Shown: positions 41,730 to 64,000 of the stretch, piece by piece | Layout: the number at the start of each line of letters is the position of its first letter | Position numbering within the stretch: position 1 is the first letter of the stretch | Source: an uncultured Nitrospiraceae bacterium | GTDB lineage: Bacteria > Nitrospirota > 9FT-COMBO-42-15 > HDB-SIOI813 | Reading direction: 5' to 3' | Assembly: GCA_964611625.1 (NCBI GenBank) | Contig: CAZTAM010000008.1 | Location: 45,387 to 109,386 of the forward strand | DNA length: 64,000 nucleotides | Notes under the pieces: model-generated | Databases searched by the model: none | What the model was told of the DNA's origin: nothing | Seen by the model: the letters and a program-made list of their open reading frames with translations, nothing else | Made by a program: the position numbers and the translations under genes

Positions 41730-41753
41730 TCGTGAATATGCACCTGTTATATG

Positions 41754-41775: not shown

Positions 41776-41814
41776 TTGAAAAATAAATATGCTAAGTTAA
41801 TCACGGGAGGTAAT

Positions 41815-44812
<2,998 letters not shown>

Positions 44813-45137: not shown

Positions 45138-45155
45138 ACACTTAAACTGATTTCA

Positions 45156-47369: not shown

Positions 47370-47409
47370 TATTTACTTAAGATTAACTGCATTTTACGTG
47401 CCTGTATAA

Positions 47410-50400
47410 TTATCGTTTACCCGGGGACAGCCTATTTTCAGGACGACTTGATTTGCCAGGTACCTGTATTTTCTGTTTTTCAGTTGATATTTCAACAGGT
47501 TCTGATTCTTTAACAGACCCGTCATTTGACACTGCCTCAATCCTGTATTTATAGACTCTGTTATTTCGTACACCTGCATCTCTGAATGTGTAAAGAAGAC
47601 CCCTTTCTCCGGCCTGTGATGAGAAATATGGTATCGGTATAGTGTTAACTATTTCTCCCTTTTTATCTTTATTATCCCATCTCTGAACATTAAATCTGCT
47701 TATCTTTCCGACTGACACCCATGTGAGAACAGCCTTTCCATCTTCATCAATCGTTACCTCAAACGGCTCAGTCACTTTGTCCCCGTCTTTAACCTGTCTG
47801 ACACCCAATTCATTGCCATTGTCATCTTCTATCTTGATTTCAAACTCACCGGGAGAAGGATATTCTTCTTTTACAGGCTCTGCTGACACCTTACCTTTAG
47901 CTGCATAGGTACTTTCTGACCCACGATCGGTCAACTCATAGCCTGTAACTTCTTTACCCACTTCATCTGTGATGATATTTCCCTCGTTAATTGCGTCTTC
48001 AGCTGGAGAACTAACTTGTTGATCTGCCTCATTAATAGCCATGGAAGGGCTGACAATTAGAGGGACATCTCCTGCTTCAGCCGATGATGGCAGAGCTGTT
48101 GAATCTGTAACCTGATTTGAAGGAGTTGCAGAAGCAATCATATGGGTACTTATACTGCCATTAATGTCTACATTTTCCAGTTTATAGTAATAAGTAACTC
48201 CATTTTCCACATCCGTGTCCTCAAAGTTGTAAGTTTTACCAGAGGTCGGAGAACCCTTGGACCTTATAAGCCAGCTGTTAATCCTGGTAAATGGTCCAGA
48301 CATGGTTGGCCCTCTCAAGATATTAAATCCCATACTGTCAACTTCCGCAGCTGTTGACCATGTCAGCAGTATCTTGTCTGCAATGCCGACTGCTTTGAAG
48401 GATGTAAGTGTAACAAGAGTGGCTTCTTCTACTGCTGCAGAAAATTCTGAGAAGCTGTATACATCTCCGCATACGAAGTTGTTATTTACATCAAGTACCA
48501 CTGTGCGGTCCCTGAAGATGCCGCCCTCAACATGCAGCCACCTTAAGCCTCTCTCTCCGCCGTAACCAACACCAAAGTATCTCTGATCCGCATATGTAAA
48601 ACACATCCTGACTTTTCCGGTATATGTCGCAGTTGTCCATATATCGAAGTATGCAGGCGGTGAGCCATGAAGGAAGCCGGATGGGAGAGTTGAACCGGTC
48701 TGGGAATTTGTAACATATGTGTCACCTGTAGCCGTAACCTGATCAAAGGTTATAGTCACGTTTACATCCGGTTTCACTACAACATTTAACCCGACTGGTG
48801 TGTAGGTGTTTGTTACGACAGGACCGCTCAGGTTTCCGGATTGGGGCAATAATGCCGACTCAAGCCCGTCCGAAGCATCAAAGTAATAATTATGTGTTCC
48901 GTCAGTCAGTGTATTACTGTAAATATATTGCTCACCATTCGCATAGTTTCCATCCCTTAATGATGCTGCTGCTGAAGCGTCCACTGCCATTGAATTACAT
49001 GTACCGTCCAGGCACAATCTGATAGATGAAGGCGCCTGATTGTCCAGGTCGGTGTAGACTGTTTTGAATCTGAATATAACATTTGTATTTCCATTATCAG
49101 GATCCACACCATCAGTAACATATCCGGCCTCTGCAGAGAATGACAGAGTCGGCTTATAGTTGACACGCGGACCGTTAAGGCTCCCGGATAAAGGTGTTTT
49201 TGTGTATGCCAGTCCATCCATGGTCTCGAAATAATAAACATGATTACCAGGGTTAAGGGTATTAATTGCGAAGGTATACTGCTCGCCGTTGCTGTATATG
49301 CCGTCTCTTAGTGTAGAATTCACGGCCGACGTATCAAGGCTCATTGCCGTGCAGGGGGTTAAATCAATGCATACCCTGACATACGTCGGCGGATTATTGT
49401 TGATATCGCGATACACAATCTTGTACCTGTAGGTAGCACTGCTGATTCCAATATTGGGTTCAACGCCATCTCCGCTGCCGTAACCCGTTTCAGTAGGATA
49501 ATTGAGTTCCGGCGGTACATTCGTCATTGATATGGATGCCTGGCCCGTAGCGCTTCCCTGAACAGAGTTGGCGGTAACTGTCGCACTTCCTGCAGTAGTG
49601 GCAGAACGCATAACAAATGTAATTATTCCTCCGCTTACAGAAACCTGAATACCAGGTGTAACTGCGTCAGCGTCTGATGTTGTAATAGTCCCCATACTGG
49701 TAGAAACGGTGATCAGAGTTCCATTGGAGACAGTATTATTGTATACATCCCTGATGACACCGCTTGTAATGGTGCTTTGAGAGAGACCATCTGCCGGAAT
49801 GGACGCCGGGACAGGGGTCAGGGAGATCGTCCCATAAGGTTCACCTGAGACAAAATCAATCTGTGTGCTTCCACTGGCACTCCCCTGTACTGAGAAGGCT
49901 GTTATAACTGCACTGCCTGAAACTGTTACTGATCTTACAACGAAACTTATAACTCCATTAACAGTTGCCACCTGAACACCGGCGTATACTCCACTTGCAT
50001 CAGCAGTCGTGATAGTCCCTCTGTCAGTTGCTACTGTTATTAGCGTCCCATCGAGCACTGTATTGCCATTGGCATCAGTTATTATGCCGCTGGTTACAGT
50101 ACTTAATGATAGACCATCGGCTACTATACTTGCCGGACTTGGTGTAAGTACTACTGCGCCGGAAGGATTGCCGGGGAGTAAGGTAATCTGAGATGTACCA
50201 GCAGCAGTACCGGACACAGACTGGCCGGTTATGACGGCCGTGCCGGCGACTGTACCGCTCTGGACTATAAAACTTATAACGCCGTTAACCGTCGGTACCT
50301 GAATACCCGCATAAGCGCCGCTGGCATCCGTAGTAGTAATAGTGCCGAGGTCGGTCGCGACTGTTATCAATGTCCCGTCCTGCACTGTATTACCATATGC

Positions 50401-53400
50401 ATCGACAATCACACCGCTTGTTACAATACTTGTTGTCAGCCCGTCCGCGACCATGCTGGCAGGTAACGGTGTAAGAGAAATCGTGCCTGCAGGCAAGCCG
50501 GGAAGGAATGTTATCTGGGTGCTGCCGGCTGCACTCCCCTGGACTGACAGGGCAGAAATATTTGATGTACCGGCAACGGTGCTGGATTGAACTATAAAAC
50601 TTATTACACCATTGAGTGCAGAAACCTGTATCCCTGCAATGGCGCCACTCGCATCTGCTGTTGTAATACTGCCATTGCTGGCACTCACTGTAATAAGTGT
50701 ACCATCTGCTACACTGTTACCATGAACGTCCGTGATTATTCCGCTGGTTACAGTGCTTGTTGCTATACCGTTGGCAGCTATGCCTGCCGGAACCGGGGAA
50801 AGAGAAATAGTTCCTGAAGGGACATCTGACAGTATAGTCTCCTGCTGACCTGCAGGAAGAAGTAACGCTGCGGCATCAGCTATATTTATAGTTGGAGTTC
50901 CGATGGCAGTATCTTTGAAGAAGAATGTCCCTATGCCATTGACCATATTAACCGGAATTGCAGTCAGACTAAACGTCCCGCCGCTGTTTGTATCCAGATA
51001 AAGTGATGCTGAATTGCTGGTTATATTTACGGTACCTGAATAGCCGGTATCAGTGACTCCAAAATCATCCTTTGCCTCAACCTGTACTGCTCCTGATACA
51101 TAACCGGCAACTACATTCTGGGGAGAAGTAGTAATCTGAAGATTAGTTGCGCTTGTAGCACCGGTAGCAAACTCAGAGAAGCTGGTAACTATACCACATA
51201 CTGTGTTGGTTGCTGTATTCACTGAGGTCGTTCTGTCTACAAGGACACCACCTTCATTATGCAGTATCTTAACAAGACCCTCTCTTGACGCATAGGTTGC
51301 CTCATTGTAGGTAATACATACTGTTACATTTCCGCTGAATGCCGAGGTAGTGCCAATGTTAAAATAGACAGGGCTGACATAACCTGCCGGCAGCGGAGTA
51401 CCTGAACCGACTTGCACAGATGAAGTGATACCAATGGTAATGACCATATCAAAGGTTAAAGATGTATTGCCGGACGGGCTGACAGTGATATTTGATCCTG
51501 TCTGAGTATTATAGAAATTGATACCTGCGGTCTGAACCACTGTAACAGTACCATTAACAGTGGCTGATATTATTGCATCTCCTGTTGCCAGAGATGCCAC
51601 TGTCCCGATAATCTGTCCATTCGCATTAGTCACGCCCACAGGCTGAGAAATAATATCACTAATACCCCGGCTTGAAGTCAGCGATACGGTTGCCCCGCTT
51701 ACCAGGTTCATATTGGAATCTCTGACCGTTATCGTCACAGTAGAGGCGCTTATACCGTCTGAATAAACGGGACTTGATGCTGTAATTGTGCTGTTCGCCG
51801 CGGAAGGCGTTCCTGCAAGAAATACAATCTGAGTAGTACCAGCCGCATTCCCAAGTACAGACTGGGCTGTTACATCAGCAGTTCCGGATGTTACCGCCGA
51901 CTGTACGGTAAAGTTTACAACACCGCTGGCTGTTACAACCTGGATTCCTGCATCTGCTCCGCTTGCATCAGAATTGGTAATAGTTCCGAAGTTAGTAGAT
52001 ACAGTTACGAGAGTGCCGTCAGATACAGCGTTACCATACGCATCTGCGATCACCCCGCTTGTTATAATACTTGTAGAGATGCCGTTTGCTATAATACTCC
52101 CCGGGACCGGCGTAAGTGAAATAGTACCTGCAGCAGGGCCTGGCTGTAATACAATATTGCTGTTTCCTGTTATTACAGACAACACAGTCCCTGTTGGAGA
52201 CTCAACACTGAGGTTTGCTGTACCACTCACGGTGCCTGTAAGTGTCCTCGTAATCACGCCGGAAACTGTAGTCCCGCTGCCTGTAATCGTGCCAAGTGAT
52301 GATACTACCCTGACTGTTGTACCGTCCGGTACGAGGTTTCCGCTGGAATCCCTTATCGTTACTGTCAGGACTGAAGAATCTGTACTGTTTGCAATAATGG
52401 TCGTCTTAGATGCAGAAATATTAGCATCCGACGGTACGCCAGGATTAAATACTATCGTTAAATTACCTGTAACATTCGACAATGTTGTACCAGCGGGAGC
52501 CTGAACTCCGAGCACTCCGGTTCCGCTCACTGTACTTGTGAGTGTACGCGTTACTACCCCGTTGACTGTTGTCCCGGTTCCGGTTACTGTGCCAACAGTC
52601 GTTGTTACTGCAACGGTTGTCCCATTGGCTACAAGGTTGTTATTTGCGTCAAATACAGTAATCGTCAATATACTGCTGTCCAGGCCATTTGCCACGACTG
52701 CTGTCTTTGATGCCGAGATTACCGCCTTGGCCGGAACTCCAGGCAGCAATGAAATACCTGTATCTCCTGTAACAGCTGCAAGCGTTGTCCCGGATGGCGA
52801 CTCAACACCCAGCACCGCAGTCCCTGCTGTCAACCCGCTCAGATAACGCGTGACAACACCATTAACAGTGTTGCCGCTTCCGGTAACAGTCCCGAGTGAG
52901 GTTGTCAGCGTAACTGATGTCCCATTAGTTATAAGATTTCCCTGAGCATCACGAACTGTAATTGTCAACACCGTCTGGTCAACACCGTCAGCTACGACTG
53001 ATGTCTTGGAGGCAGCTATGCTGGCCTGTGAAGGAACATCAGCCATAAATGACAGATTGGTATTGCCTGTAAGATTAGTAAGTGTTGTTCCAGTCGGAGA
53101 TTCAACACCAAGTGTGGCTGTACCACTCGTCGTACTTGTAATAGTCCTTGATACAACACCATTGACTGTGGTTGTCGTGCCGGTCACGGTTCCATTGGTT
53201 GCAGCCACTGTTACCGTAGTTCCATCCTCCACAAGATTGTCATAGGAATCATATACTGTAACAGTCAGCACTGAACTGTCTGTGCCATTTGAAATTATTG
53301 TCGTCTTGGATGCTGCTATATTAGCCTTTGAAGGTGTTGCTGCAGATACAGTAATCGAGAAGGCCCTGCTGGCAGTAATATTGTAGGCATCAGCAATCTG

Positions 53401-56400
53401 TACAGTAAAATTGCTCGTACCGCGGATAGCAGGTGTACCGGATATGACGCCGCTGCTGCTGTTTAGCATAAGACCTGCCGGCAGGCTGCCTGACGTCAAG
53501 CTCCAGACAACCGGTACAGTTGCTCCTGTAAAGCTGAGTGCCTGACTATACGACACTCCGGCAATTCCGCTGTTAAGGGAAGCTGTTGTAATGGCCGGGA
53601 CATCATTAACCTGAATACTTAGCGCCTTTGTTGCTGCAGCCCCATTCGCGTCAATGGCCTGCAGAGTAAAGCCCGCAGTCTCCACTGCTGAAGGGGTACC
53701 GGAAATCTCGGCTGTAGCACTATTTAGCGTCACGCCTGCAGGAAGAACTCCAGCCGCTATACTCCAGGTCAGCGGAGGTTTTCCACCTGATGCCGCTGGA
53801 GTTTGACTATAAGGCGCTGTCCTGGTCCCTGCAGGAAGAGATGAAGTAATAATAGCCAGGGAGGAATATACGTTTATACTAAGAGACCGGCTTGCTATGG
53901 CTCCATTGGCATCAACAACCTGTAATGTGAAGTTGGAAGTGCCGGCTGCAGTTGCAGTACCTGAAATTACTCCCGTGCTGCCGTTTAATGACAGACCGGC
54001 CGGCAGGCTGCCTATTATTACTGACCATGCATACGGCAACTTGCCTCCTGCCACTGTTAGAGTCTGATTATAGGCAAAGTTCACAGTTCCATCGGCCAGA
54101 CTGGCTGTTGTCACAGAAATGGACGGATAGACAACTATCGTTAGAGGTTTGGTGTCTGTAGCCCCGTTAGCATCCTGTACCTGTGCTGTAAAATTATAAG
54201 TATTTTCAGTTGTTGGTGTACCGCTGATCAGACCAGTTGATGTATTAAGAGCAAGCCCCGGAGGCAGACTGCCGGCAGACAGACTCCATACATATGGAGA
54301 CTTTCCACCTGTGGCAATCAATGACTGATTATATGCAGCACTGACCGTAGAATCATTTACAGAAGTCGTAGTCAGTGATAATGCTGTGTAAACAGTAATG
54401 GAAAGGCTCCTGGTGGCAGTAGCTCCATTATCATCTGTAACCTGAACAGTAAAGTTTGATGTCCCTGCTGAAGCCGGAGTACCTCCTATAACGCCGGTTC
54501 CACCTGTCAGAGACAGTCCGGTTGGCAGAGTGCCGGATAAGATACTCCATGAGTACGGGGTTTTTCCTCCACCTGCTGTAAGAGTCTGACTGTAAGACCA
54601 GTTGACCGTCCCATCAGAGAGTGATGCTGTACTGACACTCAAACCTGAGAATACAGCAATGGACAATGCCCTGGTACTGACAGCACCGTTAGCATCTGTA
54701 GCCTGTATAGTGAAATTGCTTGTACCGGCTGTTGTTGTGGTACCGCTGATTTCTCCTGTGGATGCGTTAAGGCTGAGACCAGCAGGAAGCACGCCTGCCG
54801 TTAAAGCCCATGTCAACGGGGTTTTACCTCCGCTTGCAGCGACTGTCTGACTGTAAGCCAGATTTACTGTACCGTCTGACAGTGCTGATGTGGTAATAGC
54901 AAGCACAGGATATACCGTGATCGTAAGTGCCTGATCCGCTGTAGCCCCGTTTGAATCAGTAACGCGAATAGTGAAATTAGCTGTACCAGCTGAAGTTGGT
55001 GTACCGGTTATAGAGCCGGACGAATTGTTAAGACTTACTCCGGCAGGCAGAGTTCCTGCCTGAACAGTCCAGGTGTACGGGGTCTTGCCGCCAATAACTG
55101 AAACACTCTGAGTATATATAAGGTTAACCGTACCATCTGTTAATGATGCTGTTGTAACTGAGAGGGCAGGGAATACAATTATTGACAATGCCCTGGATGC
55201 CGCAGCGCCGTTGGCATCTGTTGCCCTTACTGTAAAGTTTGAGGTGCCTCCCGCTGTCGGCGTACCGCTTATCTCTCCGGTAGCACTGTTAAGACTGAGC
55301 CCTGCCGGCAGTGTACCTACTGTTACAGCCCATGTAACAGGCGACTTGCCTCCGCTGCTTGCAAGCGTCTGACTGTAGGCAAGACTAACCGTACCATCGG
55401 ATAATGCCGTAGTTGTCACTGACAGCGCAGGATATATCGTTATGGATAATGCGCTCTCCACGTACGCACCATTAGCGTCTGTAGCCCGTAACGTAATATT
55501 CTCCGTGCCGGATGCCGTCGGCGTACCACTTATTGCTCCTGTCCCGCTGTTAAGACTTAGCCCTGCCGGCAGCACGCCCACAGTGATTGACCAGGCAACA
55601 GGCAGCCTTCCCCCGGTAGATGTCAGCGTCTGGCTGTAGGCAAGGTTCACCGTACCATCGGAAAGCGATGCAGTCGTAATCACAGGATATGCATTAACTG
55701 TTATAGACAGCGCCTTCGTCGCTGTAGCGCTGTTGTCATCCGTTACCTGTACCGTAATATTTGATACACCGGCTGTCGTCGGCGTCCCGCTTATTTCACC
55801 AGTAGCACCGTTAAGCGTAACCCCTGCAGGCAGGCTCCCCACTGTTACAGCCCACGTATACGGCGTCTTGCCGCCGGCAGCTGTCAGCGTCTGGCTGTAG
55901 GCAGTTGACTCCGTCGCCTGCGGCAGTGATGCCGTAGTCACTGCAAGCCCGGAGAAAATAGTAATAGTTAACGCCTGGCTTGATATTGCCCCATTCGCAT
56001 CCGTCGCACGTACCGTAAAGTTCGATGTACCGCCTGTAGTGGGCGTCCCGCTTATCACACCGGTCCCACTGGTTAATGTCACACCTAAAGGAAGGCTCCC
56101 GGCAACAACCGACCAGGTAACAGGCGCCTTACCGCCTGTGGATGTAAGCGTCTGACTGTATGCAAGACTCACAGTACCATCAGACAACGCCGTCGTCGTC
56201 ACTGAAAGCGCCGCATATACCGTAACAGACAGCGCACTCTCTGAGTATGCGCCATTCGCATCCGTCACACGCGCAGTAAAGTTCGATGTGCCGGCTGCAG
56301 TAGGCGTCCCGCTTATGACCCCGGTGGCTGTGTTAAGATTCAGACCGGCAGGAAGACTGCCCGTAGATATAGACCAGCTATATGGCGTCTTGCCGCCTGT

Positions 56401-59400
56401 TGCTGACAGCGACTGGTTATATGAAAGATTAACTGTACCATCTGACAGAGACGATGTCGTAAGCAAGAGTGCACTGTATATCTGGATAGAGAGCGCCTTT
56501 GTGGCCGATGCACCATTAGCATCCGTAACCTGTACTGTAAAGTTGCTTGTCCCGGCTGTCGTCGGTGTACCGCTGATTGCTCCTGTGGATGCATTAAGGG
56601 TAAGCCCGGCGGGAAGTGTGCCAACTGTTACAGCCCATGTATAGGGCGTCTTGCCGCCGGAGGCTAAAAGCGTCTGGCTATATGAAGAACTGGCTGTACC
56701 ATCTGACAGCGCCGCTGTACTTACACTGACTGATCCGTATATAGTAATTGATAATGCCTTGTCCTTTATAAAACCATTAACATCCGTAACACGCACCGTT
56801 ATGTTGCTCGTACCGGCTGTGGTAGGCAAACCGCTTATCTCTCCGGTACCACCATTAAGGCTGAGGCCGGATGGAAGCACACCTACCACCACAGACCAGC
56901 CAAGAGGGGATTTACCACCGGTCGCAGCAAGCGTCTGGCTGTAGGCAAGATCAATTGTACCGTCTGACAGAGCTGTCGTCGTTATGGTCAGAGTATCGTA
57001 TACCGTAACAGACAGCGCCTGACTTGCTGTCGCTCCATTCGCATCCTGTACCTGCACCGTAAAGTTGCTCACCCCGGCAGCAGCAGGCGTACCGCTGACT
57101 ACACCGGATGAGCTGTTAAGACTTGTGCCGGATGGAAGCCCCCCTGCTGTCACACTCCAGCTATATGGCGTCTTGCCGCCGCTTGCCGACAAAACCTGAC
57201 TGTAGGAGGAACCAGCCATACCGTCAGGCAGTGATGTGGTGTTAATAGAAATTGCTGAGTATATGATGATTGACAGCGCCTTCGTCGCCACTGCCCCATT
57301 CGCATCCATTACCTGTACTGTAAAGTTTGATGTGCCGGCTGTATCAGGAGTCCCGCTGATTGCACCACTGCCGCTGTTTAAACTTAACCCTGACGGCAGT
57401 GTGCCTGCTATGACCGACCACACATATGGCGTCTTGCCGCCGCTTGCCGTCAGACCCTGGCTGTAGGCAAGGCTTACCGTGCCGTCTGTAAGTGATGTGG
57501 TAGTAACTGATACCACTGTATATACGATTATAGACAGCGCCTGGCTCGATACTGCCCCGTTCGCATCTGTCACCCTGACGGTAAAGTTACTCGTACCGGA
57601 TACAGAAGGTGTCCCTGAGATAACTCCGGTAACACCGTTTAACACCAGGCCGGTCGGAAGGCTGCCAGCTGTAACAGCCCATGTATATGGCGTCTTGCCG
57701 CCTGCTGCCGAAAGCGCCTGGCTGTACGCTGCATTCACTGTACCGTCAGCAAGCACAGCCGTAGAAACACTCACTGCACTGTAGACCGTAATGCTCAACG
57801 CCTTCGTCTGCGTAGAAAGATTGTTGTCAGTTACCTGAACCGTAAAGTTGCTCGTACCGGCTGTAGCAGGAGTACCACTGATTGCCCCGGTAGAACTGTT
57901 TATGCTGAGACCAGGAGGCAGGCTGCCAACCGTAACAGCCCATGTATACGGCGGCTGACCACCGGACGCCGACAACATCTGGCTGTAGGCGGCAGTAACT
58001 GTACCATCTGAAAGCGCTGCCGTTGTAATCGTCAGTCCTGAGTAAATCGTCACAGACAGCGCCTGGCTTGCTGTACGAGCGCCACTGTCACTCACCTGCA
58101 CTGTAAAGTTCCAGGTACCAGTGCCAGAAGGCGTTCCGCTTATCTCACCGGTAGAACCATTCAGACTCAGTCCCGTCGGAAGGGTGCCGGAGATCACACT
58201 CCATGTATATGGCGTCTTACCGCCGGCGGCGGCCAGCGTCTGGCTGTACGAAAGACTGATAGTACCGGCTGAAAGAGCAGAGGTCGTTACACTAAGAGGA
58301 TTATATATATCTATCGCCAATGCCTGATCAGACGTCGCTCCATTCGAATCCGTCACACGCACCGTAAAGTTGCTCGTACCGGACACTGAAGGCGTGCCGC
58401 TTATAACACCCGTACCACTATTAAGACTCAAACCGGTTGGAAGAGTTCCGGCAGGAAGACTCCAGCTATATGGCGTCTTGCCGCCTGCTGCTACAAGTGT
58501 CTGGCTGTAGGATACACCTACCGTGCCGTCAGACAATGCGGCAGTCGTCACTGACACAGCTCCGTAGATTACTATGGCAAGGGCCTTAGTCGCTGTCGCA
58601 CCATTAGCATCCTGTGCCTGTACCGTAAAATTAGATGTACCCGAGGCAGAAGCTGTACCGCTTATCGCTCCACTGCCGCTGTTTAAACTCAATCCTGCAG
58701 GCAACGACCCCACTGTCACTGACCACGCAACAGGACTCTTGCCGCCAGATGATACAAGTGTCTGATTGTACGCTAAACCAACAGTGCCATCAGATAATGA
58801 CGACGTAGTTACTGTCAATGCACTGTAAACCGTTATAGACAGAGCCTGGCTCGCCGTTGCACTGTTAGCATCTGTAACCTGTACTGTAAAATTATATGTG
58901 CCGGCAGCTGAAGGAACGCCGCTGATTACTCCTGTCGTACTGTTAAGGCTCAGTCCAGCTGGTACAGATCCGGTTATAACGCTCCATGAATATGGGATGT
59001 TGCCCCCCGCTGCAGCAATGGGTGATGAGTATCCTGCATTAACAGTTCCATCAGGCAGCGATGCCGTTGTCACAGAAAGACCGCCGTATACCTGAATAGA
59101 AAGCCCCCTCGTTGCAACCCCGCCATATACATCCTGTACCTGCACTGTAAACGTAGCAAGTCCGGAAAGCGTTGGTGCTCCGGATATAGCCCCCGTAGCG
59201 CCATTGAGTGTCAGACCTGCCGGCAGGCTTCCGGCTGTCACAGACCATATATAAGGCGTCTTGCCGCCAGCAGCAGCAAGTGACGCCGCATAAGCACCGC
59301 TTACCGTACCATCAGGCAGGGCTGCTGTCGTGATGGCAACCGCTGAATAAATGGTAATTGACAGGCTCTTATTGTTTGTAAATCCATTGTTATCAGTTAC

Positions 59401-62400
59401 CCGTGCTGTAAAACCATAGTTTCCCGAAGCAGAAGGTATGCCGCTGATCTCACCTGTTGCGCTGTTTAAACTAAGACCTGATGGCAGGCTCCCTGAGGCA
59501 AGGCTCCATACATATGGGGTCTTCCCTCCTGCAGCCGCCAAGGTCTGTAAATAAGATGCGCTTACCGTTCCCTCAGCAAGTGACGCGGTCGTTACAGATA
59601 GTGTGTCATATATTGTTATCGAAAGCACTCTGGCGGCAGTCGCACTATTGGCATCCTGCACCTGCACTGTAAAGTTACTGGTACCTGCAGTGGTTGGCGT
59701 ACCTGAGAGTGCCCCTGTAGCAGCATTTAGTGTCAGACCGGCTGGAAGTACCCCAACTGATACACTCCATGTATAAGGCGTCTTGCCTCCGGAGGCTGTC
59801 AGCGTCTGGTTGTAGGAAGACCCTATGTTACCATCCAGAAGGGAAGAGGTAGTAACGCTAAGGCCGCTATATATTATTATTGACAATGCCCTGGATGCCG
59901 CAGCGCCGTTGGCATCTGTTGCCCTTACTGTAAAGTTTGAGGTGCCTCCCGCTGTCGGCGTACCGCTTATCTCTCCGGTAGCACTGTTAAGACTGAGCCC
60001 TGCCGGCAGTGTACCTACTGTTACAGCCCATGTAACAGGCGACTTGCCTCCGCTGCTTGCAAGCGTCTGACTGTAGGCAAGACTAACCGTACCATCGGAT
60101 AATGCCGTAGTTGTCACTGACAGCGCAGGATATATCGTTATGGATAATGCGCTCTCCACGTACGCACCATTAGCGTCTGTAGCCCGTAACGTAATATTCT
60201 CCGTGCCGGATGCCGTCGGCGTACCACTTATTGCTCCTGTCCCGCTGTTAAGACTTAGCCCTGCCGGCAGCACGCCCACAGTGATTGACCAGGCAACAGG
60301 CAGCCTTCCCCCGGTAGATGTCAGCGTCTGGCTGTAGGCAAGGTTCACCGTACCATCGGAAAGCGATGCAGTCGTAATCACAGGATATGCATTAACTGTT
60401 ATAGACAGCGCCTTCGTCGCTGTAGCGCTGTTGTCATCCGTTACCTGTACCGTAATATTTGATACACCGGCTGTCGTCGGCGTCCCGCTTATTTCACCAG
60501 TAGCACCGTTAAGCGTAACCCCTGCAGGCAGGCTCCCCACTGTTACAGCCCACGTATACGGCGTCTTGCCGCCGGCAGCTGTCAGCGTCTGGCTGTAGGC
60601 AGTTGACTCCGTCGCCTGCGGCAGTGATGCCGTAGTCACTGCAAGCCCGGAGAAAATAGTAATAGTTAACGCCTGGCTTGATATTGCCCCATTCGCATCC
60701 GTCGCACGTACCGTAAAGTTCGATGTACCGCCTGTAGTGGGCGTCCCGCTTATCACACCGGTCCCACTGGTTAATGTCACACCTAAAGGAAGGCTCCCGG
60801 CAACAACCGACCAGGTAACAGGCGCCTTACCGCCTGTGGATGTAAGCGTCTGACTGTATGCAAGACTCACAGTACCATCAGACAACGCCGTCGTCGTCAC
60901 TGAAAGCGCCGCATATACCGTAACAGACAGCGCACTCTCTGAGTATGCGCCATTCGCATCCGTCACACGCGCAGTAAAGTTCGATGTGCCGGCTGCAGTA
61001 GGCGTCCCGCTTATGACCCCGGTGGCTGTGTTAAGATTCAGACCGGCAGGAAGACTGCCCGTAGATATAGACCAGCTATATGGCGTCTTGCCGCCTGTTG
61101 CTGACAGCGACTGGTTATATGAAAGATTAACTGTACCATCTGACAGAGACGATGTCGTAAGCAAGAGTGCACTGTATATCTGGATAGAGAGCGCCTTTGT
61201 GGCCGATGCACCATTAGCATCCGTAACCTGTACTGTAAAGTTGCTTGTCCCGGCTGTCGTCGGTGTACCGCTGATTGCTCCTGTGGATGCATTAAGGGTA
61301 AGCCCGGCGGGAAGTGTGCCAACTGTTACAGCCCATGTATAGGGCGTCTTGCCGCCGGAGGCTAAAAGCGTCTGGCTATATGAAGAACTGGCTGTACCAT
61401 CTGACAGCGCCGCTGTACTTACACTGACTGATCCGTATATAGTAATTGATAATGCCTTGTCCTTTATAAAACCATTAACATCCGTAACACGCACCGTTAT
61501 GTTGCTCGTACCGGCTGTGGTAGGCAAACCGCTTATCTCTCCGGTACCACCATTAAGGCTGAGGCCGGATGGAAGCACACCTACCACCACAGACCAGCCA
61601 AGAGGGGATTTACCACCGGTCGCAGCAAGCGTCTGGCTGTAGGCAAGATCAATTGTACCGTCTGACAGAGCTGTCGTCGTTATGGTCAGAGTATCGTATA
61701 CCGTAACAGACAGCGCCTGACTTGCTGTCGCTCCATTCGCATCCTGTACCTGCACCGTAAAGTTGCTCACCCCGGCAGCAGCAGGCGTACCGCTGACTAC
61801 ACCGGATGAGCTGTTAAGACTTGTGCCGGATGGAAGCCCCCCTGCTGTCACACTCCAGCTATATGGCGTCTTGCCGCCGCTTGCCGACAAAACCTGACTG
61901 TAGGAGGAACCAGCCATACCGTCAGGCAGTGATGTGGTGTTAATAGAAATTGCTGAGTATATGATGATTGACAGCGCCTTCGTCGCCACTGCCCCATTCG
62001 CATCCATTACCTGTACTGTAAAGTTTGATGTGCCGGCTGTATCAGGAGTCCCGCTGATTGCACCACTGCCGCTGTTTAAACTTAACCCTGACGGCAGTGT
62101 GCCTGCTATGACCGACCACACATATGGCGTCTTGCCGCCGCTTGCCGTCAGACCCTGGCTGTAGGCAAGGCTTACCGTGCCGTCTGTAAGTGATGTGGTA
62201 GTAACTGATACCACTGTATATACGATTATAGACAGCGCCTGGCTCGATACTGCCCCGTTCGCATCTGTCACCCTGACGGTAAAGTTACTCGTACCGGATA
62301 CAGAAGGTGTCCCTGAGATAACTCCGGTAACACCGTTTAACACCAGGCCGGTCGGAAGGCTGCCAGCTGTAACAGCCCATGTATATGGCGTCTTGCCGCC

Positions 62401-64000
62401 TGCTGCCGAAAGCGCCTGGCTGTACGCTGCATTCACTGTACCGTCAGCAAGCACAGCCGTAGAAACACTCACTGCACTGTAGACCGTAATGCTCAACGCC
62501 TTCGTCTGCGTAGAAAGATTGTTGTCAGTTACCTGAACCGTAAAGTTGCTCGTACCGGCTGTAGCAGGAGTACCACTGATTGCCCCGGTAGAACTGTTTA
62601 TGCTGAGACCAGGAGGCAGGCTGCCAACCGTAACAGCCCATGTATACGGCGGCTGACCACCGGACGCCGACAACATCTGGCTGTAGGCGGCAGTAACTGT
62701 ACCATCTGAAAGCGCTGCCGTTGTAATCGTCAGTCCTGAGTAAATCGTCACAGACAGCGCCTGGCTTGCTGTACGAGCGCCACTGTCACTCACCTGCACT
62801 GTAAAGTTCCAGGTACCAGTGCCAGAAGGCGTTCCGCTTATCTCACCGGTAGAACCATTCAGACTCAGTCCCGTCGGAAGGGTGCCGGAGATCACACTCC
62901 ATGTATATGGCGTCTTACCGCCGGCGGCGGCCAGCGTCTGGCTGTACGAAAGACTGATAGTACCGGCTGAAAGAGCAGAGGTCGTTACACTAAGAGGATT
63001 ATATATATCTATCGCCAATGCCTGATCAGACGTCGCTCCATTCGAATCCGTCACACGCACCGTAAAGTTGCTCGTACCGGACACTGAAGGCGTGCCGCTT
63101 ATAACACCCGTACCACTATTAAGACTCAAACCGGTTGGAAGAGTTCCGGCAGGAAGACTCCAGCTATATGGCGTCTTGCCGCCTGCTGCTACAAGTGTCT
63201 GGCTGTAGGATACACCTACCGTGCCGTCAGACAATGCGGCAGTCGTCACTGACACAGCTCCGTAGATTACTATGGCAAGGGCCTTAGTCGCTGTCGCACC
63301 ATTAGCATCCTGTGCCTGTACCGTAAAATTAGATGTACCCGAGGCAGAAGCTGTACCGCTTATCGCTCCACTGCCGCTGTTTAAACTCAATCCTGCAGGC
63401 AACGACCCCACTGTCACTGACCACGCAACAGGACTCTTGCCGCCAGATGATACAAGTGTCTGATTGTACGCTAAACCAACAGTGCCATCAGATAATGACG
63501 ACGTAGTTACTGTCAATGCACTGTAAATCGTTATAGACAGAGCCTTTGTTGCTATTGCGCCATTGGAATCCTGCGCCTGAACCGTGAAATTAGATGTGCC
63601 GGATGCAGCAGGGGTACCACTGACTGCTCCGGTTGCGCTGTTTAGACTCAGACCAGATGGGATAGAGCCGGATATTATACTCCATAAATACGGCGTCTTA
63701 CCACCAGAAGCAGCCAGCGTCTGGCTGTATCCGGCATTGGCAGTTCCATCTGCAAGACTGTCCGTTGCTACACTAATAGCACTGTAAATGGTAATTGAAA
63801 GATTCTTCGTGTTCGTTACAAGATTATTGTCTGTCACCTGAACGGTGACAGGATAACTCCCTGCGGTTGTTGGTGTCCCGCTGATCGTTCCTGTAGAGGA
63901 ATTGAGTGATAACCCGGCCGGTAGTGTGCCCAGGGTAATACTCCAGGCATAGGGTGTTGAGCCTCCTGTAGCCGATAGTGTCGTATTGTATGCCAGGTTC
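47410..64000 (-). CDS. Giant multi-domain surface protein/adhesin, 5' end outside the window (more than 5,530 codons visible)
   Basis: A single open frame runs from the right edge to TAA at 47410-47412. The ATG at 63837 used by the ORF track is internal, because the same frame stays open to base 64000 and still encodes He_PIG repeat sequence. Domain order is He_PIG x about 41, Big_1-like arrays, ZU5-like modules, two Cys-containing modules and two FN3-like modules. Confidence 0.9.
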   Translation of the reverse strand, partial: NLAYNTTLSATGGSTPYAWSITLGTLPAGLSLNSSTGTISGTPTTAGSYPVTVQVTDNNLVTNTKNLSITIYSAISVATDSLADGTANAGYSQTLAASGGKTPYLWSIISGSIPSGLSLNSATGAVSGTPAASGTSNFTVQAQDSNGAIATKALSITIYSALTVTTSSLSDGTVGLAYNQTLVSSGGKSPVAWSVTVGSLPAGLSLNSGSGAISGTASASGTSNFTVQAQDANGATATKALAIVIYGAVSVTTAALSDGTVGVSYSQTLVAAGGKTPYSWSLPAGTLPTGLSLNSGTGVISGTPSVSGTSNFTVRVTDSNGATSDQALAIDIYNPLSVTTSALSAGTISLSYSQTLAAAGGKTPYTWSVISGTLPTGLSLNGSTGEISGTPSGTGTWNFTVQVSDSGARTASQALSVTIYSGLTITTAALSDGTVTAAYSQMLSASGGQPPYTWAVTVGSLPPGLSINSSTGAISGTPATAGTSNFTVQVTDNNLSTQTKALSITVYSAVSVSTAVLADGTVNAAYSQALSAAGGKTPYTWAVTAGSLPTGLVLNGVTGVISGTPSVSGTSNFTVRVTDANGAVSSQALSIIVYTVVSVTTTSLTDGTVSLAYSQGLTASGGKTPYVWSVIAGTLPSGLSLNSGSGAISGTPDTAGTSNFTVQVMDANGAVATKALSIIIYSAISINTTSLPDGMAGSSYSQVLSASGGKTPYSWSVTAGGLPSGTSLNSSSGVVSGTPAAAGVSNFTVQVQDANGATASQALSVTVYDTLTITTTALSDGTIDLAYSQTLAATGGKSPLGWSVVVGVLPSGLSLNGGTGEISGLPTTAGTSNITVRVTDVNGFIKDKALSITIYGSVSVSTAALSDGTASSSYSQTLLASGGKTPYTWAVTVGTLPAGLTLNASTGAISGTPTTAGTSNFTVQVTDANGASATKALSIQIYSALLLTTSSLSDGTVNLSYNQSLSATGGKTPYSWSISTGSLPAGLNLNTATGVISGTPTAAGTSNFTARVTDANGAYSESALSVTVYAALSVTTTALSDGTVSLAYSQTLTSTGGKAPVTWSVVAGSLPLGVTLTSGTGVISGTPTTGGTSNFTVRATDANGAISSQALTITIFSGLAVTTASLPQATESTAYSQTLTAAGGKTPYTWAVTVGSLPAGVTLNGATGEISGTPTTAGVSNITVQVTDDNSATATKALSITVNAYPVITTASLSDGTVNLAYSQTLTSTGGRLPVAWSITVGVLPAGLSLNSGTGAISGTPTASGTENITLRATDANGAYVESALSITIYPALSVTTTALSDGTVSLAYSQTLASSGGKSPVTWAVTVGTLPAGLSLNSATGEISGTPTAGGTSNFTVRATDANGAAASRALSIIIYSGLSVTTSSLLDGNIGSSYNQTLTASGGKTPYTWSVSVGVLPAGLTLNAATGALSGTPTTAGTSNFTVQVQDANSATAARVLSITIYDTLSVTTASLAEGTVSASYLQTLAAAGGKTPYVWSLASGSLPSGLSLNSATGEISGIPSASGNYGFTARVTDNNGFTNNKSLSITIYSAVAITTAALPDGTVSGAYAASLAAAGGKTPYIWSVTAGSLPAGLTLNGATGAISGAPTLSGLATFTVQVQDVYGGVATRGLSIQVYGGLSVTTASLPDGTVNAGYSSPIAAAGGNIPYSWSVITGSVPAGLSLNSTTGVISGVPSAAGTYNFTVQVTDANSATASQALSITVYSALTVTTSSLSDGTVGLAYNQTLVSSGGKSPVAWSVTVGSLPAGLSLNSGSGAISGTASASGTSNFTVQAQDANGATATKALAIVIYGAVSVTTAALSDGTVGVSYSQTLVAAGGKTPYSWSLPAGTLPTGLSLNSGTGVISGTPSVSGTSNFTVRVTDSNGATSDQALAIDIYNPLSVTTSALSAGTISLSYSQTLAAAGGKTPYTWSVISGTLPTGLSLNGSTGEISGTPSGTGTWNFTVQVSDSGARTASQALSVTIYSGLTITTAALSDGTVTAAYSQMLSASGGQPPYTWAVTVGSLPPGLSINSSTGAISGTPATAGTSNFTVQVTDNNLSTQTKALSITVYSAVSVSTAVLADGTVNAAYSQALSAAGGKTPYTWAVTAGSLPTGLVLNGVTGVISGTPSVSGTSNFTVRVTDANGAVSSQALSIIVYTVVSVTTTSLTDGTVSLAYSQGLTASGGKTPYVWSVIAGTLPSGLSLNSGSGAISGTPDTAGTSNFTVQVMDANGAVATKALSIIIYSAISINTTSLPDGMAGSSYSQVLSASGGKTPYSWSVTAGGLPSGTSLNSSSGVVSGTPAAAGVSNFTVQVQDANGATASQALSVTVYDTLTITTTALSDGTIDLAYSQTLAATGGKSPLGWSVVVGVLPSGLSLNGGTGEISGLPTTAGTSNITVRVTDVNGFIKDKALSITIYGSVSVSTAALSDGTASSSYSQTLLASGGKTPYTWAVTVGTLPAGLTLNASTGAISGTPTTAGTSNFTVQVTDANGASATKALSIQIYSALLLTTSSLSDGTVNLSYNQSLSATGGKTPYSWSISTGSLPAGLNLNTATGVISGTPTAAGTSNFTARVTDANGAYSESALSVTVYAALSVTTTALSDGTVSLAYSQTLTSTGGKAPVTWSVVAGSLPLGVTLTSGTGVISGTPTTGGTSNFTVRATDANGAISSQALTITIFSGLAVTTASLPQATESTAYSQTLTAAGGKTPYTWAVTVGSLPAGVTLNGATGEISGTPTTAGVSNITVQVTDDNSATATKALSITVNAYPVITTASLSDGTVNLAYSQTLTSTGGRLPVAWSITVGVLPAGLSLNSGTGAISGTPTASGTENITLRATDANGAYVESALSITIYPALSVTTTALSDGTVSLAYSQTLASSGGKSPVTWAVTVGTLPAGLSLNSATGEISGTPTAGGTSNFTVRATDANGAAASRALSIIVFPALSVTTASLTDGTVNLIYTQSVSVIGGKTPYTWTVQAGTLPAGVSLNNSSGSITGTPTSAGTANFTIRVTDSNGATADQALTITVYPVLAITTSALSDGTVNLAYSQTVAASGGKTPLTWALTAGVLPAGLSLNASTGEISGTTTTAGTSNFTIQATDANGAVSTRALSIAVFSGLSVSTASLSDGTVNWSYSQTLTAGGGKTPYSWSILSGTLPTGLSLTGGTGVIGGTPASAGTSNFTVQVTDDNGATATRSLSITVYTALSLTTTSVNDSTVSAAYNQSLIATGGKSPYVWSLSAGSLPPGLALNTSTGLISGTPTTENTYNFTAQVQDANGATDTKPLTIVVYPSISVTTASLADGTVNFAYNQTLTVAGGKLPYAWSVIIGSLPAGLSLNGSTGVISGTATAAGTSNFTLQVVDANGAIASRSLSINVYSSLAIITSSLPAGTRTAPYSQTPAASGGKPPLTWSIAAGVLPAGVTLNSATAEISGTPSAVETAGFTLQAIDANGAAATKALSIQVNDVPAITTASLNSGIAGVSYSQALSFTGATVPVVWSLTSGSLPAGLMLNSSSGVISGTPAIRGTSNFTVQIADAYNITASRAFSITVSAATPSKANIAASKTTIISNGTDSSVLTVTVYDSYDNLVEDGTTVTVAATNGTVTGTTTTVNGVVSRTITSTTSGTATLGVESPTGTTLTNLTGNTNLSFMADVPSQASIAASKTSVVADGVDQTVLTITVRDAQGNLITNGTSVTLTTSLGTVTGSGNTVNGVVTRYLSGLTAGTAVLGVESPSGTTLAAVTGDTGISLLPGVPAKAVISASKTAVVANGLDSSILTITVFDANNNLVANGTTVAVTTTVGTVTGTGTTVNGVVTRTLTSTVSGTGVLGVQAPAGTTLSNVTGNLTIVFNPGVPSDANISASKTTIIANSTDSSVLTVTIRDSSGNLVPDGTTVRVVSSLGTITGSGTTVSGVITRTLTGTVSGTANLSVESPTGTVLSVITGNSNIVLQPGPAAGTISLTPVPGSIIANGISTSIITSGVIADAYGNAVSDGTLVTVSTNFGTITNSDASGADAGIQVVTASGVVNFTVQSAVTSGTADVTAQSVLGNAAGTTQIVFLAGTPSAANSTITASSPVYSDGISASTVTITVRDSNMNLVSGATVSLTSSRGISDIISQPVGVTNANGQIIGTVASLATGDAIISATVNGTVTVVQTAGINFYNTQTGSNITVSPSGNTSLTFDMVITIGITSSVQVGSGTPLPAGYVSPVYFNIGTTSAFSGNVTVCITYNEATYASREGLVKILHNEGGVLVDRTTSVNTATNTVCGIVTSFSEFATGATSATNLQITTSPQNVVAGYVSGAVQVEAKDDFGVTDTGYSGTVNITSNSASLYLDTNSGGTFSLTAIPVNMVNGIGTFFFKDTAIGTPTINIADAAALLLPAGQQETILSDVPSGTISLSPVPAGIAANGIATSTVTSGIITDVHGNSVADGTLITVSASNGSITTADASGAIAGIQVSALNGVISFIVQSSTVAGTSNISALSVQGSAAGSTQITFLPGLPAGTISLTPLPASMVADGLTTSIVTSGVIVDAYGNTVQDGTLITVATDLGTITTTDASGAYAGIQVPTVNGVISFIVQSGTVAGTAVITGQSVSGTAAGTSQITLLPGNPSGAVVLTPSPASIVADGLSLSTVTSGIITDANGNTVLDGTLITVATDRGTITTADASGVYAGVQVATVNGVISFVVRSVTVSGSAVITAFSVQGSASGSTQIDFVSGEPYGTISLTPVPASIPADGLSQSTITSGVIRDVYNNTVSNGTLITVSTSMGTITTSDADAVTPGIQVSVSGGIITFVMRSATTAGSATVTANSVQGSATGQASISMTNVPPELNYPTETGYGSGDGVEPNIGISSATYRYKIVYRDINNNPPTYVRVCIDLTPCTAMSLDTSAVNSTLRDGIYSNGEQYTFAINTLNPGNHVYYFETMDGLAYTKTPLSGSLNGPRVNYKPTLSFSAEAGYVTDGVDPDNGNTNVIFRFKTVYTDLDNQAPSSIRLCLDGTCNSMAVDASAAASLRDGNYANGEQYIYSNTLTDGTHNYYFDASDGLESALLPQSGNLSGPVVTNTYTPVGLNVVVKPDVNVTITFDQVTATGDTYVTNSQTGSTLPSGFLHGSPPAYFDIWTTATYTGKVRMCFTYADQRYFGVGYGGERGLRWLHVEGGIFRDRTVVLDVNNNFVCGDVYSFSEFSAAVEEATLVTLTSFKAVGIADKILLTWSTAAEVDSMGFNILRGPTMSGPFTRINSWLIRSKGSPTSGKTYNFEDTDVENGVTYYYKLENVDINGSISTHMIASATPSNQVTDSTALPSSAEAGDVPLIVSPSMAINEADQQVSSPAEDAINEGNIITDEVGKEVTGYELTDRGSESTYAAKGKVSAEPVKEEYPSPGEFEIKIEDDNGNELGVRQVKDGDKVTEPFEVTIDEDGKAVLTWVSVGKISRFNVQRWDNKDKKGEIVNTIPIPYFSSQAGERGLLYTFRDAGVRNNRVYKYRIEAVSNDGSVKESEPVEISTEKQKIQVPGKSSRPENRLSPGKR
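48430..48810 (-). other. ZU5-like beta-sandwich module 2 of the giant protein, ending VYSFSEF (S-F-S = 48448-48456)
   Basis: Paralog of module 1 (see that entry). Confidence 0.4.
48815..49515 (-). repeat. Two copies of an unrecognised module of about 113 aa with paired Cys residues
   Basis: Y(R/F)(Y/F)K.VY.D.(N/D)N..P..(V/I)R.C.D...C..M..D.S....LRDG.Y.NGEQY.......G.H.YYF...DGL.....P.SG.L.GP.V. Confidence 0.6.
49517..50825 (-). repeat. Four tandem 109-aa (327-bp) Ig-like repeats
   Basis: GTISL(S/T)P.PA...ADG...S.VTSG.I.D..GN.V.DGTLITV....G.ITT.DASG...G.QV...NGVISF.V.S.TV.G...I...SV.G.A.G..QI. Diverged at nucleotide level. Confidence 0.75.
51165..51510 (-). other. ZU5-like beta-sandwich module 1 of the giant protein, ending VTSFSEF (S-F-S = 51175-51183)
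   Basis: Shares the pattern LP.G(Y/F)......YF.I.TT..(F/Y).G.V..C..Y.......E.L..LH.EGG...DRT......N.VCG.V.SFSEF with module 2. Confidence 0.4.
51510..53340 (-). repeat. Block of about 6 Big_1-like (invasin/intimin-type) Ig domains, about 97-109 aa each
   Basis: Repeats of I.ASKT.(V/I).A(N/D)G.D.S.LT(V/I)TV.D..GNLV.(D/N)GT.V.....G(T/S).TG.G.TV.GV.TR.L....G. Confidence 0.7.
55178..58847 (-). repeat. Copy A of a 3.65-kb (14-domain) apparently exact intragenic repeat
   Basis: Offset of 4698 bp to copy B. The left boundary was read base by base. One mismatch at 58830, after which identity continues to 58847. Confidence 0.85.
59876..63545 (-). repeat. Copy B of the 3.65-kb intragenic repeat
   Basis: The main-frame translation is identical over about 1,217 aa. 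Seven antisense ORF pairs are identical at a +4698 offset. Several 60-nt lines were checked base by base. Confidence 0.85.

What the first reader, a model, noticed from the sequence alone, without database searches (positions are those of the whole stretch)
55178..63545. Apparently base-perfect 3.65-kb (14-domain) block present twice inside the giant gene, separated by 4 diverged domains
- Seen in sequence:
  - 55178-58829 matches 59876-63527 at a constant offset of 4698 bp, which is 18 x 261 bp or exactly 18 He_PIG domains.
  - There is a single mismatch (58830 C versus 63528 T), followed by 17 more identical bases.
  - Both boundaries sit in the conserved inter-domain linker (..SITIYS / ..LSII..).
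  - The main-frame proteins are identical over about 1,217 aa.
  - Seven antisense ORF pairs are identical, and spot-checked 60-nt lines are identical.
  - All other He_PIG units in the array are clearly diverged at nucleotide level.
- Inference:
  - The arrangement is A-spacer-A, not a simple tandem A-A or AS-AS.
  - That fits recent gene conversion or concerted evolution between distant blocks, which could drive adhesin variation.
  - It also fits an assembly artefact in a repeat-rich gene.
Basis: seen in the sequence. Interest (0 to 1): 0.7.

Follow-up and report, generated by a model that had tools for sequence, protein, structure and literature searches.

The report
Recent 14-domain block duplication in adhesin gene
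A giant surface-protein gene of an uncultured groundwater Nitrospirota bacterium holds two base-perfect copies of a 3.65-kb, 14-domain block separated by four unrelated domains; this is a very recent rearrangement of a familiar kind, and its true copy number cannot be confirmed without reads.

Summary
Window 55178-58829 equals 59876-63527 with 0 mismatches in 3,652 bp at an offset of 4,698 bp (18 x 261). All other 261-bp He_PIG units are 49-70% identical, with synonymous sites almost saturated.

The gene lies on the minus strand. It ends at 47410 and runs off the window at 64000, so at least 5,530 codons are visible.

The layout is X-A-S-A-Y. It is not a tandem duplication, and there is no older 18-unit periodicity.

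Two independent k=31 Logan assemblies (SRR14787579 and SRR14787580) both end exactly 30 nt, which is k-1, inside the A1|Y border. The reads therefore branch at that border, and the repeat boundary is not an invention of the MAG assembler. The true structure could still be X-(A-S)n-A-Y with n of 1 or more.

A closely related strain differs at 8 of 5,752 bp. The duplication is therefore younger than that split (P(0 differences) about 0.006).

A junction-phase argument disfavours a simple in-register insertion, and also a tandem duplication followed by precise deletion. Block replacement (conversion-like) or a duplication followed by a larger deletion both fit.

The consequence is inferred: a 3.65-kb direct repeat is a substrate for in-frame loss or gain of 18 domains.

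This is a known kind of event in repeat-rich adhesin genes, so interest is modest.

The parts
47410..64000 (-). 3' part of a giant surface-protein gene. At least 5,530 codons are visible and the 5' end lies beyond the window. Order from the N-terminal side: at least 41 He_PIG Ig-like units of 87 aa, about 11 Invasin_D3/Big_1 domains, then a region of about 700 aa with no family match.
   Evidence: One search lists the ORF. One search shows the frame is open to base 64000. One search gives the Pfam matches: He_PIG 2.3e-74, Invasin_D3 1.1e-65 and Big_1 3.4e-35. Searches find no family for the last 696 aa apart from a weak fn3 match.
59876..63527 (-). Copy A2, the 5'-proximal copy in the gene. 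It is a 3,652-bp block of 14 He_PIG units less 2 nt.
   Evidence: One search shows it is identical to 55178-58829. One search shows units 2-14 equal units 20-32.
58830..59875 (-). Spacer S, 1,046 bp, four He_PIG units (15-18 and part of 19). It is unique in the window. Its first 18 nt next to A1 (58830-58847) match X with one mismatch.
   Evidence: The S units are 54-64% identical to all other units.
55178..58829 (-). Copy A1, the 3'-proximal copy in the gene, 3,652 bp.
   Evidence: Logan contigs L001 and L015 end at 55207, which is 30 nt inside this copy.
63528..64000 (-). Flank X, upstream of A2 in the gene. It consists of diverged He_PIG units.
   Evidence: One search shows 188 of 473 positions differ from the corresponding part of S. 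One search gives the translation.
53398..55177 (-). Flank Y, the last seven He_PIG units (33-39), diverged. There is weak positional orthology with the last five units of the nzgw272 orthologue.
   Evidence: One search gives the matrix. One search shows L002 unit 1 best matches window unit 36 (71% aa) and L002 unit 4 best matches unit 39.
45156..47369 (-). PorU-like peptidase C25 gene 40 bp downstream of the giant gene. The synteny is conserved in a related Nitrospirota MAG.
   Evidence: Peptidase_C25 1.6e-82. NF033707 T9SS_sortase at 267 bits, below the cut-off of 420. L002 carries the giant gene followed by C25.

Best explanation
This is most likely a real and very recent intragenic segmental duplication. 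It lies in the He_PIG stalk array of a giant cell-surface, adhesin-like protein gene in an uncultured groundwater Nitrospirota bacterium.

A 14-domain block (A, 3,652 bp) is present at least twice in direct orientation, 18 domains apart. Four unique domains (S) lie between the copies, giving the layout X-A-S-A-Y.

The array itself is old, with synonymous sites nearly saturated between units. The second copy of A arose after the split from a 99.86%-identical sister strain.

Both breakpoints lie in the conserved inter-domain linker, in register, so the reading frame and the domain boundaries are preserved.

The event was not a single tandem duplication. On junction phase, it was also not a clean in-register insertion into one linker. 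It was either a replacement of a pre-existing stretch of units by a copy of A (gap repair or conversion primed in the conserved linkers), or a larger duplication followed by a deletion.

The following steps are inferred, not shown. The two 3.65-kb direct repeats now form a strong RecA substrate. Unequal exchange between them would remove or add exactly 18 domains (4,698 bp, 1,566 aa) in frame. The population probably contains length variants X-(A-S)n-A-Y, and the assembled n = 1 is only the minimal path.
For: - Searches show exact identity over 3,652 bp against a 49-70% background.
- One search shows the longest background exact run is 27 nt, and gives the junction sequences and codon phases. 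58831 (G) and 55177 (T) are exactly 14 x 261 nt apart. Both would have to be the same ancestral base under an insertion, or under a duplication followed by precise deletion. The same applies to 63529 (G) and 59875 (A).
- One search shows third-codon-position identity between diverged units is 37% against 26% expected at random, so the array is old. It also gives an expected 5.1 differences at the divergence of the sister strain, with P(0) = 0.006.
- One search shows L014 differs at 8 of 5,752 bp.
- Searches show Logan contigs from two runs (SRR14787579, 13,008 bp; SRR14787580, 39,176 bp) that are 100% identical to the window. Both stop at 55207, which is 30 nt inside A1.
- (PMC12424806) states that Logan contigs are k=31 Minia3 contigs in which every 31-mer is unique. 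A stop k-1 nt inside the repeat is therefore what a genuine branch at 55177|55178 produces.
- Searches show the ORF is intact through all four junctions and the surrounding genes are ordinary chromosomal housekeeping genes.
- Searches give the taxonomy and the conserved synteny of the giant gene with C25 in the nzgw272 MAG.
Against: - No reads, coverage or long-read data could be examined. Linkage of both A copies on one molecule, and the copy number, are therefore untested.
- The A-S-A topology is exactly the 'short loop' that a SPAdes-type assembler unrolls once. This point rests on my own knowledge of that assembler.
- The Logan break proves only a branch at the A1|Y border. It does not show that the other branch is S.
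- No orthologue or sister-strain assembly covers this part of the array, so the ancestral state is unknown.
- The junction-phase argument rests on a single nucleotide per model. One later substitution or an imprecise join would void it.
- Units are only about 60% identical, so any homology-driven mechanism has little to work with, at most 17-27 nt.
Confidence: 0.65

Rival explanations
1. Assembly artefact in the strict sense. A occurs once per genome, and the contig path X-A-S-A-Y is a chimera of two strains or two paralogous giant genes (for example X-A-S... and ...S-A-Y), or a mis-unrolled loop.
For: - The gene is extremely repeat-rich.
- The source is an NCBI MAG contig of 111,082 bp whose assembly method is unknown.
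- Short-read graphs cannot span 3.65 kb.
- At least one closely related strain exists in other samples.
- The exact sequence is absent from GTDB representative genomes and from JGI metagenomes, so there is no independent full-length assembly.
Against: - A chimera needs both an A-end-to-S-start junction and an S-end-to-A-start junction in real reads. The flanks share at most 17 nt, so k-mer coincidence cannot create these edges.
- The simplest genome that contains both junctions is A-S-A itself.
- Two separate runs branch at exactly the predicted base.
- All four junctions are in frame and in domain register.
Confidence: 0.15
2. The repeat is real but the copy number is under-called. The true locus would be a higher-order tandem array X-(A-S)n-A-Y with n of 2 or more and a period of 18 domains (4,698 bp), collapsed by the assembler to the minimal single traversal.
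For: - The graph topology X to A, A to S, S to A, A to Y is identical for every n of 1 or more.
- Logan contigs cannot tell these apart, because each 31-mer is stored only once.
- Once 3.65-kb direct repeats exist, they are expected to amplify further. This is established behaviour of direct repeats under RecA and rests on my own knowledge.
Against: Nothing speaks directly against it. It needs additional events, and there is no coverage information to suggest more than two copies of A.
Confidence: 0.15
3. Ongoing concerted evolution. On this view, frequent gene conversion homogenises distant parts of the array as a standing mechanism of adhesin variation.
For: - The two A blocks are identical.
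- The junction phase is compatible with block replacement.
Against: - Apart from A, no pair among the 40 full units analysed exceeds 70% nucleotide identity, and synonymous sites are near saturation. Homogenisation is therefore not a general property of this array.
- The orthologue in nzgw272 retains weak one-to-one positional similarity for its last units, which suggests long-term stability.
Confidence: 0.05

Closest known systems
Periscope Proteins (Whelan et al. 2021, PMC8201768): variable-length bacterial surface stalks such as SasG, Aap, Rib, Sgo_0707 and CdrA
   Same: - The stalk is a tandem array of Ig-like domains in a very large surface protein.
- Stretches identical at the DNA level provide the substrate for intragenic recombination that changes stalk length in frame.
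   Different: - In Periscope Proteins the adjacent single-domain repeats are themselves near-identical. Here adjacent units are only 55-70% identical in nucleotides (46-69% in amino acids).
- The identical element here is a 14-domain block repeated 18 domains away.
- No between-strain length variation has been observed.
- The N-terminal functional domain and the anchor are not visible in the window.
Fibrillar or giant adhesins built of He_PIG, Big_1 and Invasin_D3 Ig-like domains (for example the classes surveyed in PMC9210967)
   Same: The domain types and the architecture match: a long monotonous stalk of Ig-like domains followed by a different C-terminal module.
   Different: - The organism is an uncultured Nitrospirota.
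- The C-terminal region of about 700 aa has no family match.
- No adhesive domain has been identified.
- The gene sits next to a PorU-like C25 peptidase.
Segmental (block) duplications inside eukaryotic repeat genes, such as the near-identical 8-exon triplicate region of nebulin, the titin super-repeats, and higher-order repeats in satellites (from my own knowledge)
   Same: - A multi-unit block is copied as a whole inside an array of older, diverged units.
- This creates a higher-order period and a hotspot for copy-number change.
   Different: - Those cases are usually strictly tandem. Here a unique four-unit spacer separates the copies, and no second S is present.
- This is a bacterial gene with no introns.
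Gene conversion between dispersed bacterial repeats, such as tufA/tufB, rRNA operons and pilS to pilE (from my own knowledge)
   Same: A non-reciprocal copy of one tract over another could give A-S-A without changing the array length. The junction-phase data allow this.
   Different: - Known cases use donors and recipients that are already highly similar. Here the presumed recipient would have been only about 60% identical.
- Neither the donor-recipient polarity nor the ancestral state is known.

Membership tests
He_PIG (PF05345) tandem Ig-like domain array | Repeated matches to the He_PIG profile above the gathering score | tested here: met
   One search gives 246 bits against a cut-off of 24, with 6 stretches in a 522-aa sample. 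Searches show a regular period of 87 aa (261 nt) over 40 full units, plus a partial unit upstream at the window edge.
Simple tandem duplication | The two copies abut, so the offset equals the repeat length | tested here: not met
   One search gives an offset of 4,698 bp against a repeat of 3,652 bp. The 1,046-bp spacer is unique, and X and Y are only 54-62% identical to S.
Older 18-unit higher-order periodicity (AS-AS ancestry) | Units 18 apart outside block A are more similar than background | tested here: not met
   In one search, unit pairs 0/18, 15/33, 16/34, 17/35 and 18/36 are 62, 62, 54, 55 and 57% identical. This lies within the background range of 49-70%.
Periscope Protein class | Adjacent tandem repeats are highly identical at the DNA level | tested here: not met
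   Searches show adjacent units are 55-70% identical in nucleotides and 46-69% in amino acids.
Periscope Protein class | Repeat number varies between strains | not testable with these tools
   No other assembly reaches this part of the array. L014 covers only 44961-50712, L002 ends 5 units into the array, and L096 has only 943 bp upstream.
Periscope Protein class | A cell-surface protein with a distal functional domain and a cell-wall or membrane anchor | tested here: inconclusive
   The N-terminus lies outside the window. The C-terminal 696 aa have no Pfam or NCBIfam family apart from a weak fn3 match.
Gene conversion (block replacement) | A recipient tract is replaced by the donor without a change in unit number, and the flanks of the new copy derive from two different ancestral linkers | tested here: inconclusive
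   The phase analysis shows the flanks of either copy cannot be the two halves of one linker (G vs T for A1, G vs A for A2). This fits replacement, but also fits a duplication followed by a larger deletion. The ancestral state is not available.
Assembly artefact (false repeat) | There is no branch in the read graph at the repeat borders, and coverage is single-copy | tested here: not met
   The first feature was tested. Two independent k=31 assemblies stop exactly k-1 = 30 nt inside the A1 border, so a branch exists. Coverage and long-read linkage could not be tested with these tools.
T9SS cargo plus PorU sortase pair | PorU scores above the NCBIfam cut-off and the cargo has a T9SS C-terminal sorting domain | tested here: not met
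   One search gives NF033707 at 267 bits against a cut-off of 420. No C-terminal sorting domain model hits the last 696 aa.

The most novel reading that the evidence does not exclude
The block duplication could be the visible state of a length-switching system in an environmental bacterium. On this reading, an otherwise ancient and diverged Ig-domain stalk has acquired a 3.65-kb direct repeat. This repeat would let the population toggle the adhesin stalk by exactly 18 domains (about 1,566 aa) per recombination step, giving X-(A-S)n-A-Y with n = 0, 1, 2 and so on. Identical domains would never be adjacent, so the misfolding penalty of classical Periscope arrays would be avoided. That would be a 'higher-order' Periscope mechanism.
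Probability: 0.2. Interest if true: 0.45.

Novelty: new member of a known kind. Interest (0 to 1): 0.25.

Why it matters
If real, this is a clean and datable example of how giant bacterial stalk proteins grow or are remodelled. The change happens by whole multi-domain blocks rather than single units, inside an array whose units are otherwise ancient.

It also creates a large in-frame recombination substrate that should cause stalk-length heterogeneity in the population.

On the practical side, it marks a locus in this MAG where the assembled copy number should not be trusted. It also shows that the break points of independent k-mer assemblies can be used to check repeat borders when reads are not at hand.

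Tried and rejected
- Tandem Repeats Finder on 47000-64000 returned nothing, because the period is too diverged and the block is longer than 500 nt. The repeat finder reported only the 261-nt family and hid the long block. The exact comparison had to be scripted.
- An exact DNA search for an A-border 49-mer in GTDB representative genomes and for an X-flank 59-mer in JGI metagenomes gave no hits. No independent full assembly of this strain exists in those collections.
- A protein search with S plus flanking units returned only generic He_PIG proteins of at most 59% identity and under 915 aa. Neither the gene's own product nor the Logan fragments appear in that index.
- Exact look-ups of the partial products predicted for the A-unitig and the S-unitig failed. 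The others are not in the collection. This seems to reflect the absence of cut or long products from the collection, so it is uninformative.
- A search for orthologues with the non-repetitive C-terminus was run in genomes and metagenomes. The best relatives (nzgw272 at 57% aa, Ga0209322 at 70% aa) sit on contigs that stop at or before the He_PIG array, so the block structure could not be compared.
- A literature search for the SRA run numbers found nothing.
- I considered a mobile element, an inverted-repeat switch or a phage origin and rejected them. There are no inverted repeats, the neighbours are housekeeping genes, and the ORF is intact.
- I considered chance or conservation as the source of the identity and rejected it.

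Full report
**Observation**

A direct string comparison shows that window 55178-58829 and 59876-63527 are identical over 3,652 bp with no mismatch. The offset is constant at 4,698 bp, which is 18 x 261. To the right there is one mismatch (58830 C vs 63528 T), then 17 identical bases, and from 58848 the flanks are about 60% identical. To the left, identity stops abruptly at 55177.

The gene is on the minus strand. Its stop codon is at 47410-47412, and the frame is still open at base 64000. The 'GTG start at 63837' from the ORF list is not a real start, and at least 5,530 codons are visible.

**Background**

I cut the array into 261-nt units in the gene frame. Every pair of units is 49-70% identical in nucleotides, except units 2-14 against 20-32 (100%) and the hybrid border pair 1/19 (93%).

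Between diverged units, amino-acid identity averages 59%. Identity at codon positions 1 and 2 is 70%. Identity at position 3 is only 37%, where 26% is expected from composition alone. The array is therefore old and held together by purifying selection on the fold.

The longest in-register exact run between any two diverged units is 27 nt, with a median of 10. A 3,652-nt run cannot be conservation or chance.

Units 18 apart outside the block (0/18, 15/33, 16/34, 17/35, 18/36) are 54-62% identical, which is background. There is no older 18-unit periodicity. In gene orientation the layout is truly X-A2-S-A1-Y, not AS-AS.

**What the gene is**

Pfam finds He_PIG over the 87-aa units, then Invasin_D3/Big_1 domains. 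It finds nothing, apart from a weak fn3 match, in the last 696 aa.

Forty base pairs downstream lies a Peptidase_C25 gene. It resembles the T9SS sortase PorU but scores below the NCBIfam cut-off. It is followed by metK and ahcY.

The rest of the examined neighbourhood is housekeeping: ArgRS, Tgt, SecDF, RecJ, RelA/SpoT, Lnt and a two-component pair.

The nearest relatives of MetK are groundwater Nitrospirae MAGs (93% to NC_groundwater_1965, 90% to nzgw273). A syntenic orthologue of the giant gene plus C25 exists in Nitrospirae MAG nzgw272, at 57-64% amino-acid identity. Its contig ends only five He_PIG units into the array. Those five units show weak one-to-one similarity to the window's last five units.

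The window is therefore chromosomal DNA of an uncultured Nitrospirota. The gene is a giant, adhesin-like surface protein with an Ig-domain stalk. The surface role is inferred from domain content only.

**Is the repeat real?**

The exact product of the neighbouring C25 gene occurs in NCBI, on a contig of 111,082 bp that is presumably the source MAG. It also occurs in two Logan assemblies.

The Logan contigs from SRR14787579 (13,008 bp) and SRR14787580 (39,176 bp) are 100% identical to the window. Both end at window position 55207, which is 30 nt inside copy A1.

Logan contigs are Minia3 contigs of a k=31 de Bruijn graph, in which every 31-mer occurs once per accession (PMC12424806). A contig that stops k-1 nt inside the repeat is what a real branch at 55177|55178 produces. 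If the reads held only the Y|A junction, the contig would have run on into A.

The border of the repeat is therefore present in the reads of two runs, independently of whatever assembler made the MAG.

S and X share only 17 nt next to A, and S and Y share almost nothing. The S-to-A and A-to-S edges therefore cannot arise from k-mer coincidence, and some molecule must carry them. The simplest such molecule is A-S-A.

Three things remain untested:
- whether the second branch seen by Logan is S;
- whether both A copies are on one molecule;
- how many (A-S) cycles there are, since every X-(A-S)n-A-Y with n of 1 or more gives the same graph.

No collection available here holds another assembly of this region.

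**Age**

A sister strain (Logan SRR24682841, L014) differs from the window at 8 of 5,752 bp. At that divergence, 5.1 differences would be expected between two 3,652-bp copies, and none is seen (Poisson P = 0.006). The duplication, or its last homogenisation, is therefore younger than that strain split.

**Mechanism**

Both borders lie in the conserved linker. Identity starts at the second base of the V/I codon in ALSIT[V/I]YS. It ends at the second base of the preceding codon, 14 units further on. The identical tract is therefore 14 x 261 - 2 nt.

This allows a test. Suppose a copy of A had simply been inserted in register into one ancestral linker, or (A+S) had been tandemly duplicated and the second S then precisely deleted. 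The bases just outside the new copy on its two sides would then be the same ancestral positions.

For A1, the relevant bases are 58831 and 55177, exactly 3,654 nt apart. On the gene strand they are G and T. For A2, they are 63529 and 59875, which are G and A.

Both simple models therefore need an extra substitution in a region where 3,652 bp have accumulated none.

Two models remain. In both, the flanks come from different ancestral linkers:
- replacement of a pre-existing run of units by a copy of A (gap repair or conversion primed in the short conserved linker stretches);
- a duplication followed by a deletion that also removed further units.

It is compatible with the data but not shown. 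With only about 60% identity between units, it would have had to rely on very short homologies.

Ongoing concerted evolution is not supported, because nothing else in the array is homogenised.

**Consequence (inferred)**

Two 3.65-kb direct repeats spaced 1,046 bp apart are a strong substrate for RecA-dependent unequal exchange. Each event would delete or add exactly 4,698 bp, which is 18 domains or 1,566 aa, in frame. The population is likely to be heterogeneous in stalk length.

This resembles the length variation of Periscope Proteins (PMC8201768). The defining feature of that class, near-identical adjacent repeats, is not met here. Identical domains are 18 units apart, and between-strain length variation could not be examined.

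**Verdict**

It is best described as a very recent block duplication or replacement within an old Ig-domain stalk array. The copy number is uncertain.

Events of this kind are well known in repeat-rich surface-protein genes. The A-S-A layout and the junction-phase result are neat details rather than a new principle. Interest is modest at 0.25.

Noticed in passing
window 45156-47369 (-): A Peptidase_C25 gene lies 40 bp downstream of the giant gene. It aligns over almost its whole length to the T9SS sortase PorU model (267 bits, below the cut-off of 420) and to PorU2 (207 bits, cut-off 450). The giant gene plus C25 pairing is conserved in Nitrospirae MAG nzgw272 (L002). The giant protein's last 696 aa have no recognised T9SS C-terminal sorting domain. 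This may be a dedicated processing or attachment protease for the giant protein.
   Followed up: partly
window 47410-49500 (-): The C-terminal region of about 700 aa matches no Pfam or NCBIfam family, apart from a weak fn3 match. It contains an internally duplicated module of about 95 aa (NYPTETGYG.../...HVYYFETMDG and its second copy). One search also shows a further module repeated about 2 kb upstream at 38% identity. The first 230 residues have relatives (40-60% aa) in Deltaproteobacteria, Binatia, CPR (Taylorbacteria, Kerfeldbacteria, Saccharibacteria) and archaeal MAGs.
   Followed up: partly
window 48000-64000: G+C rises from 39-46% in the rest of the window to 50-54% in the He_PIG array. 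This probably reflects the Gly/Ala/Thr/Ser-rich domain composition rather than foreign origin.
   Followed up: no
window 50353-50357: Three of the eight differences between the window and the sister strain (Logan SRR24682841, L014) cluster within 5 nt inside the Invasin_D3/Big_1 region. This may be a small multi-nucleotide substitution or a micro-conversion.
   Followed up: no
L002 (JAHFEQ010000020.1, Nitrospirae nzgw272), locus 1-1400: The orthologous giant gene in this SPAdes MAG is cut by the contig end only five He_PIG units into the array. This suggests that the orthologue's array also defeats short-read assembly.
   Followed up: partly
window 26436-28430 (-): A 664-aa protein has an fn3 domain followed by an RCC1-like beta-propeller (RCC1 2e-70). 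It sits among housekeeping genes.
   Followed up: no
window 42200: The Logan contig from SRR14787579 (L001) ends at 42200, in the overlap of two candidate ORFs, the response-regulator ORF on the plus strand (41623-42378) and ahcY on the minus strand (42375-43646). The contig from SRR14787580 runs on through this position. This may be a local strain variant or a coverage gap in one run.
   Followed up: no
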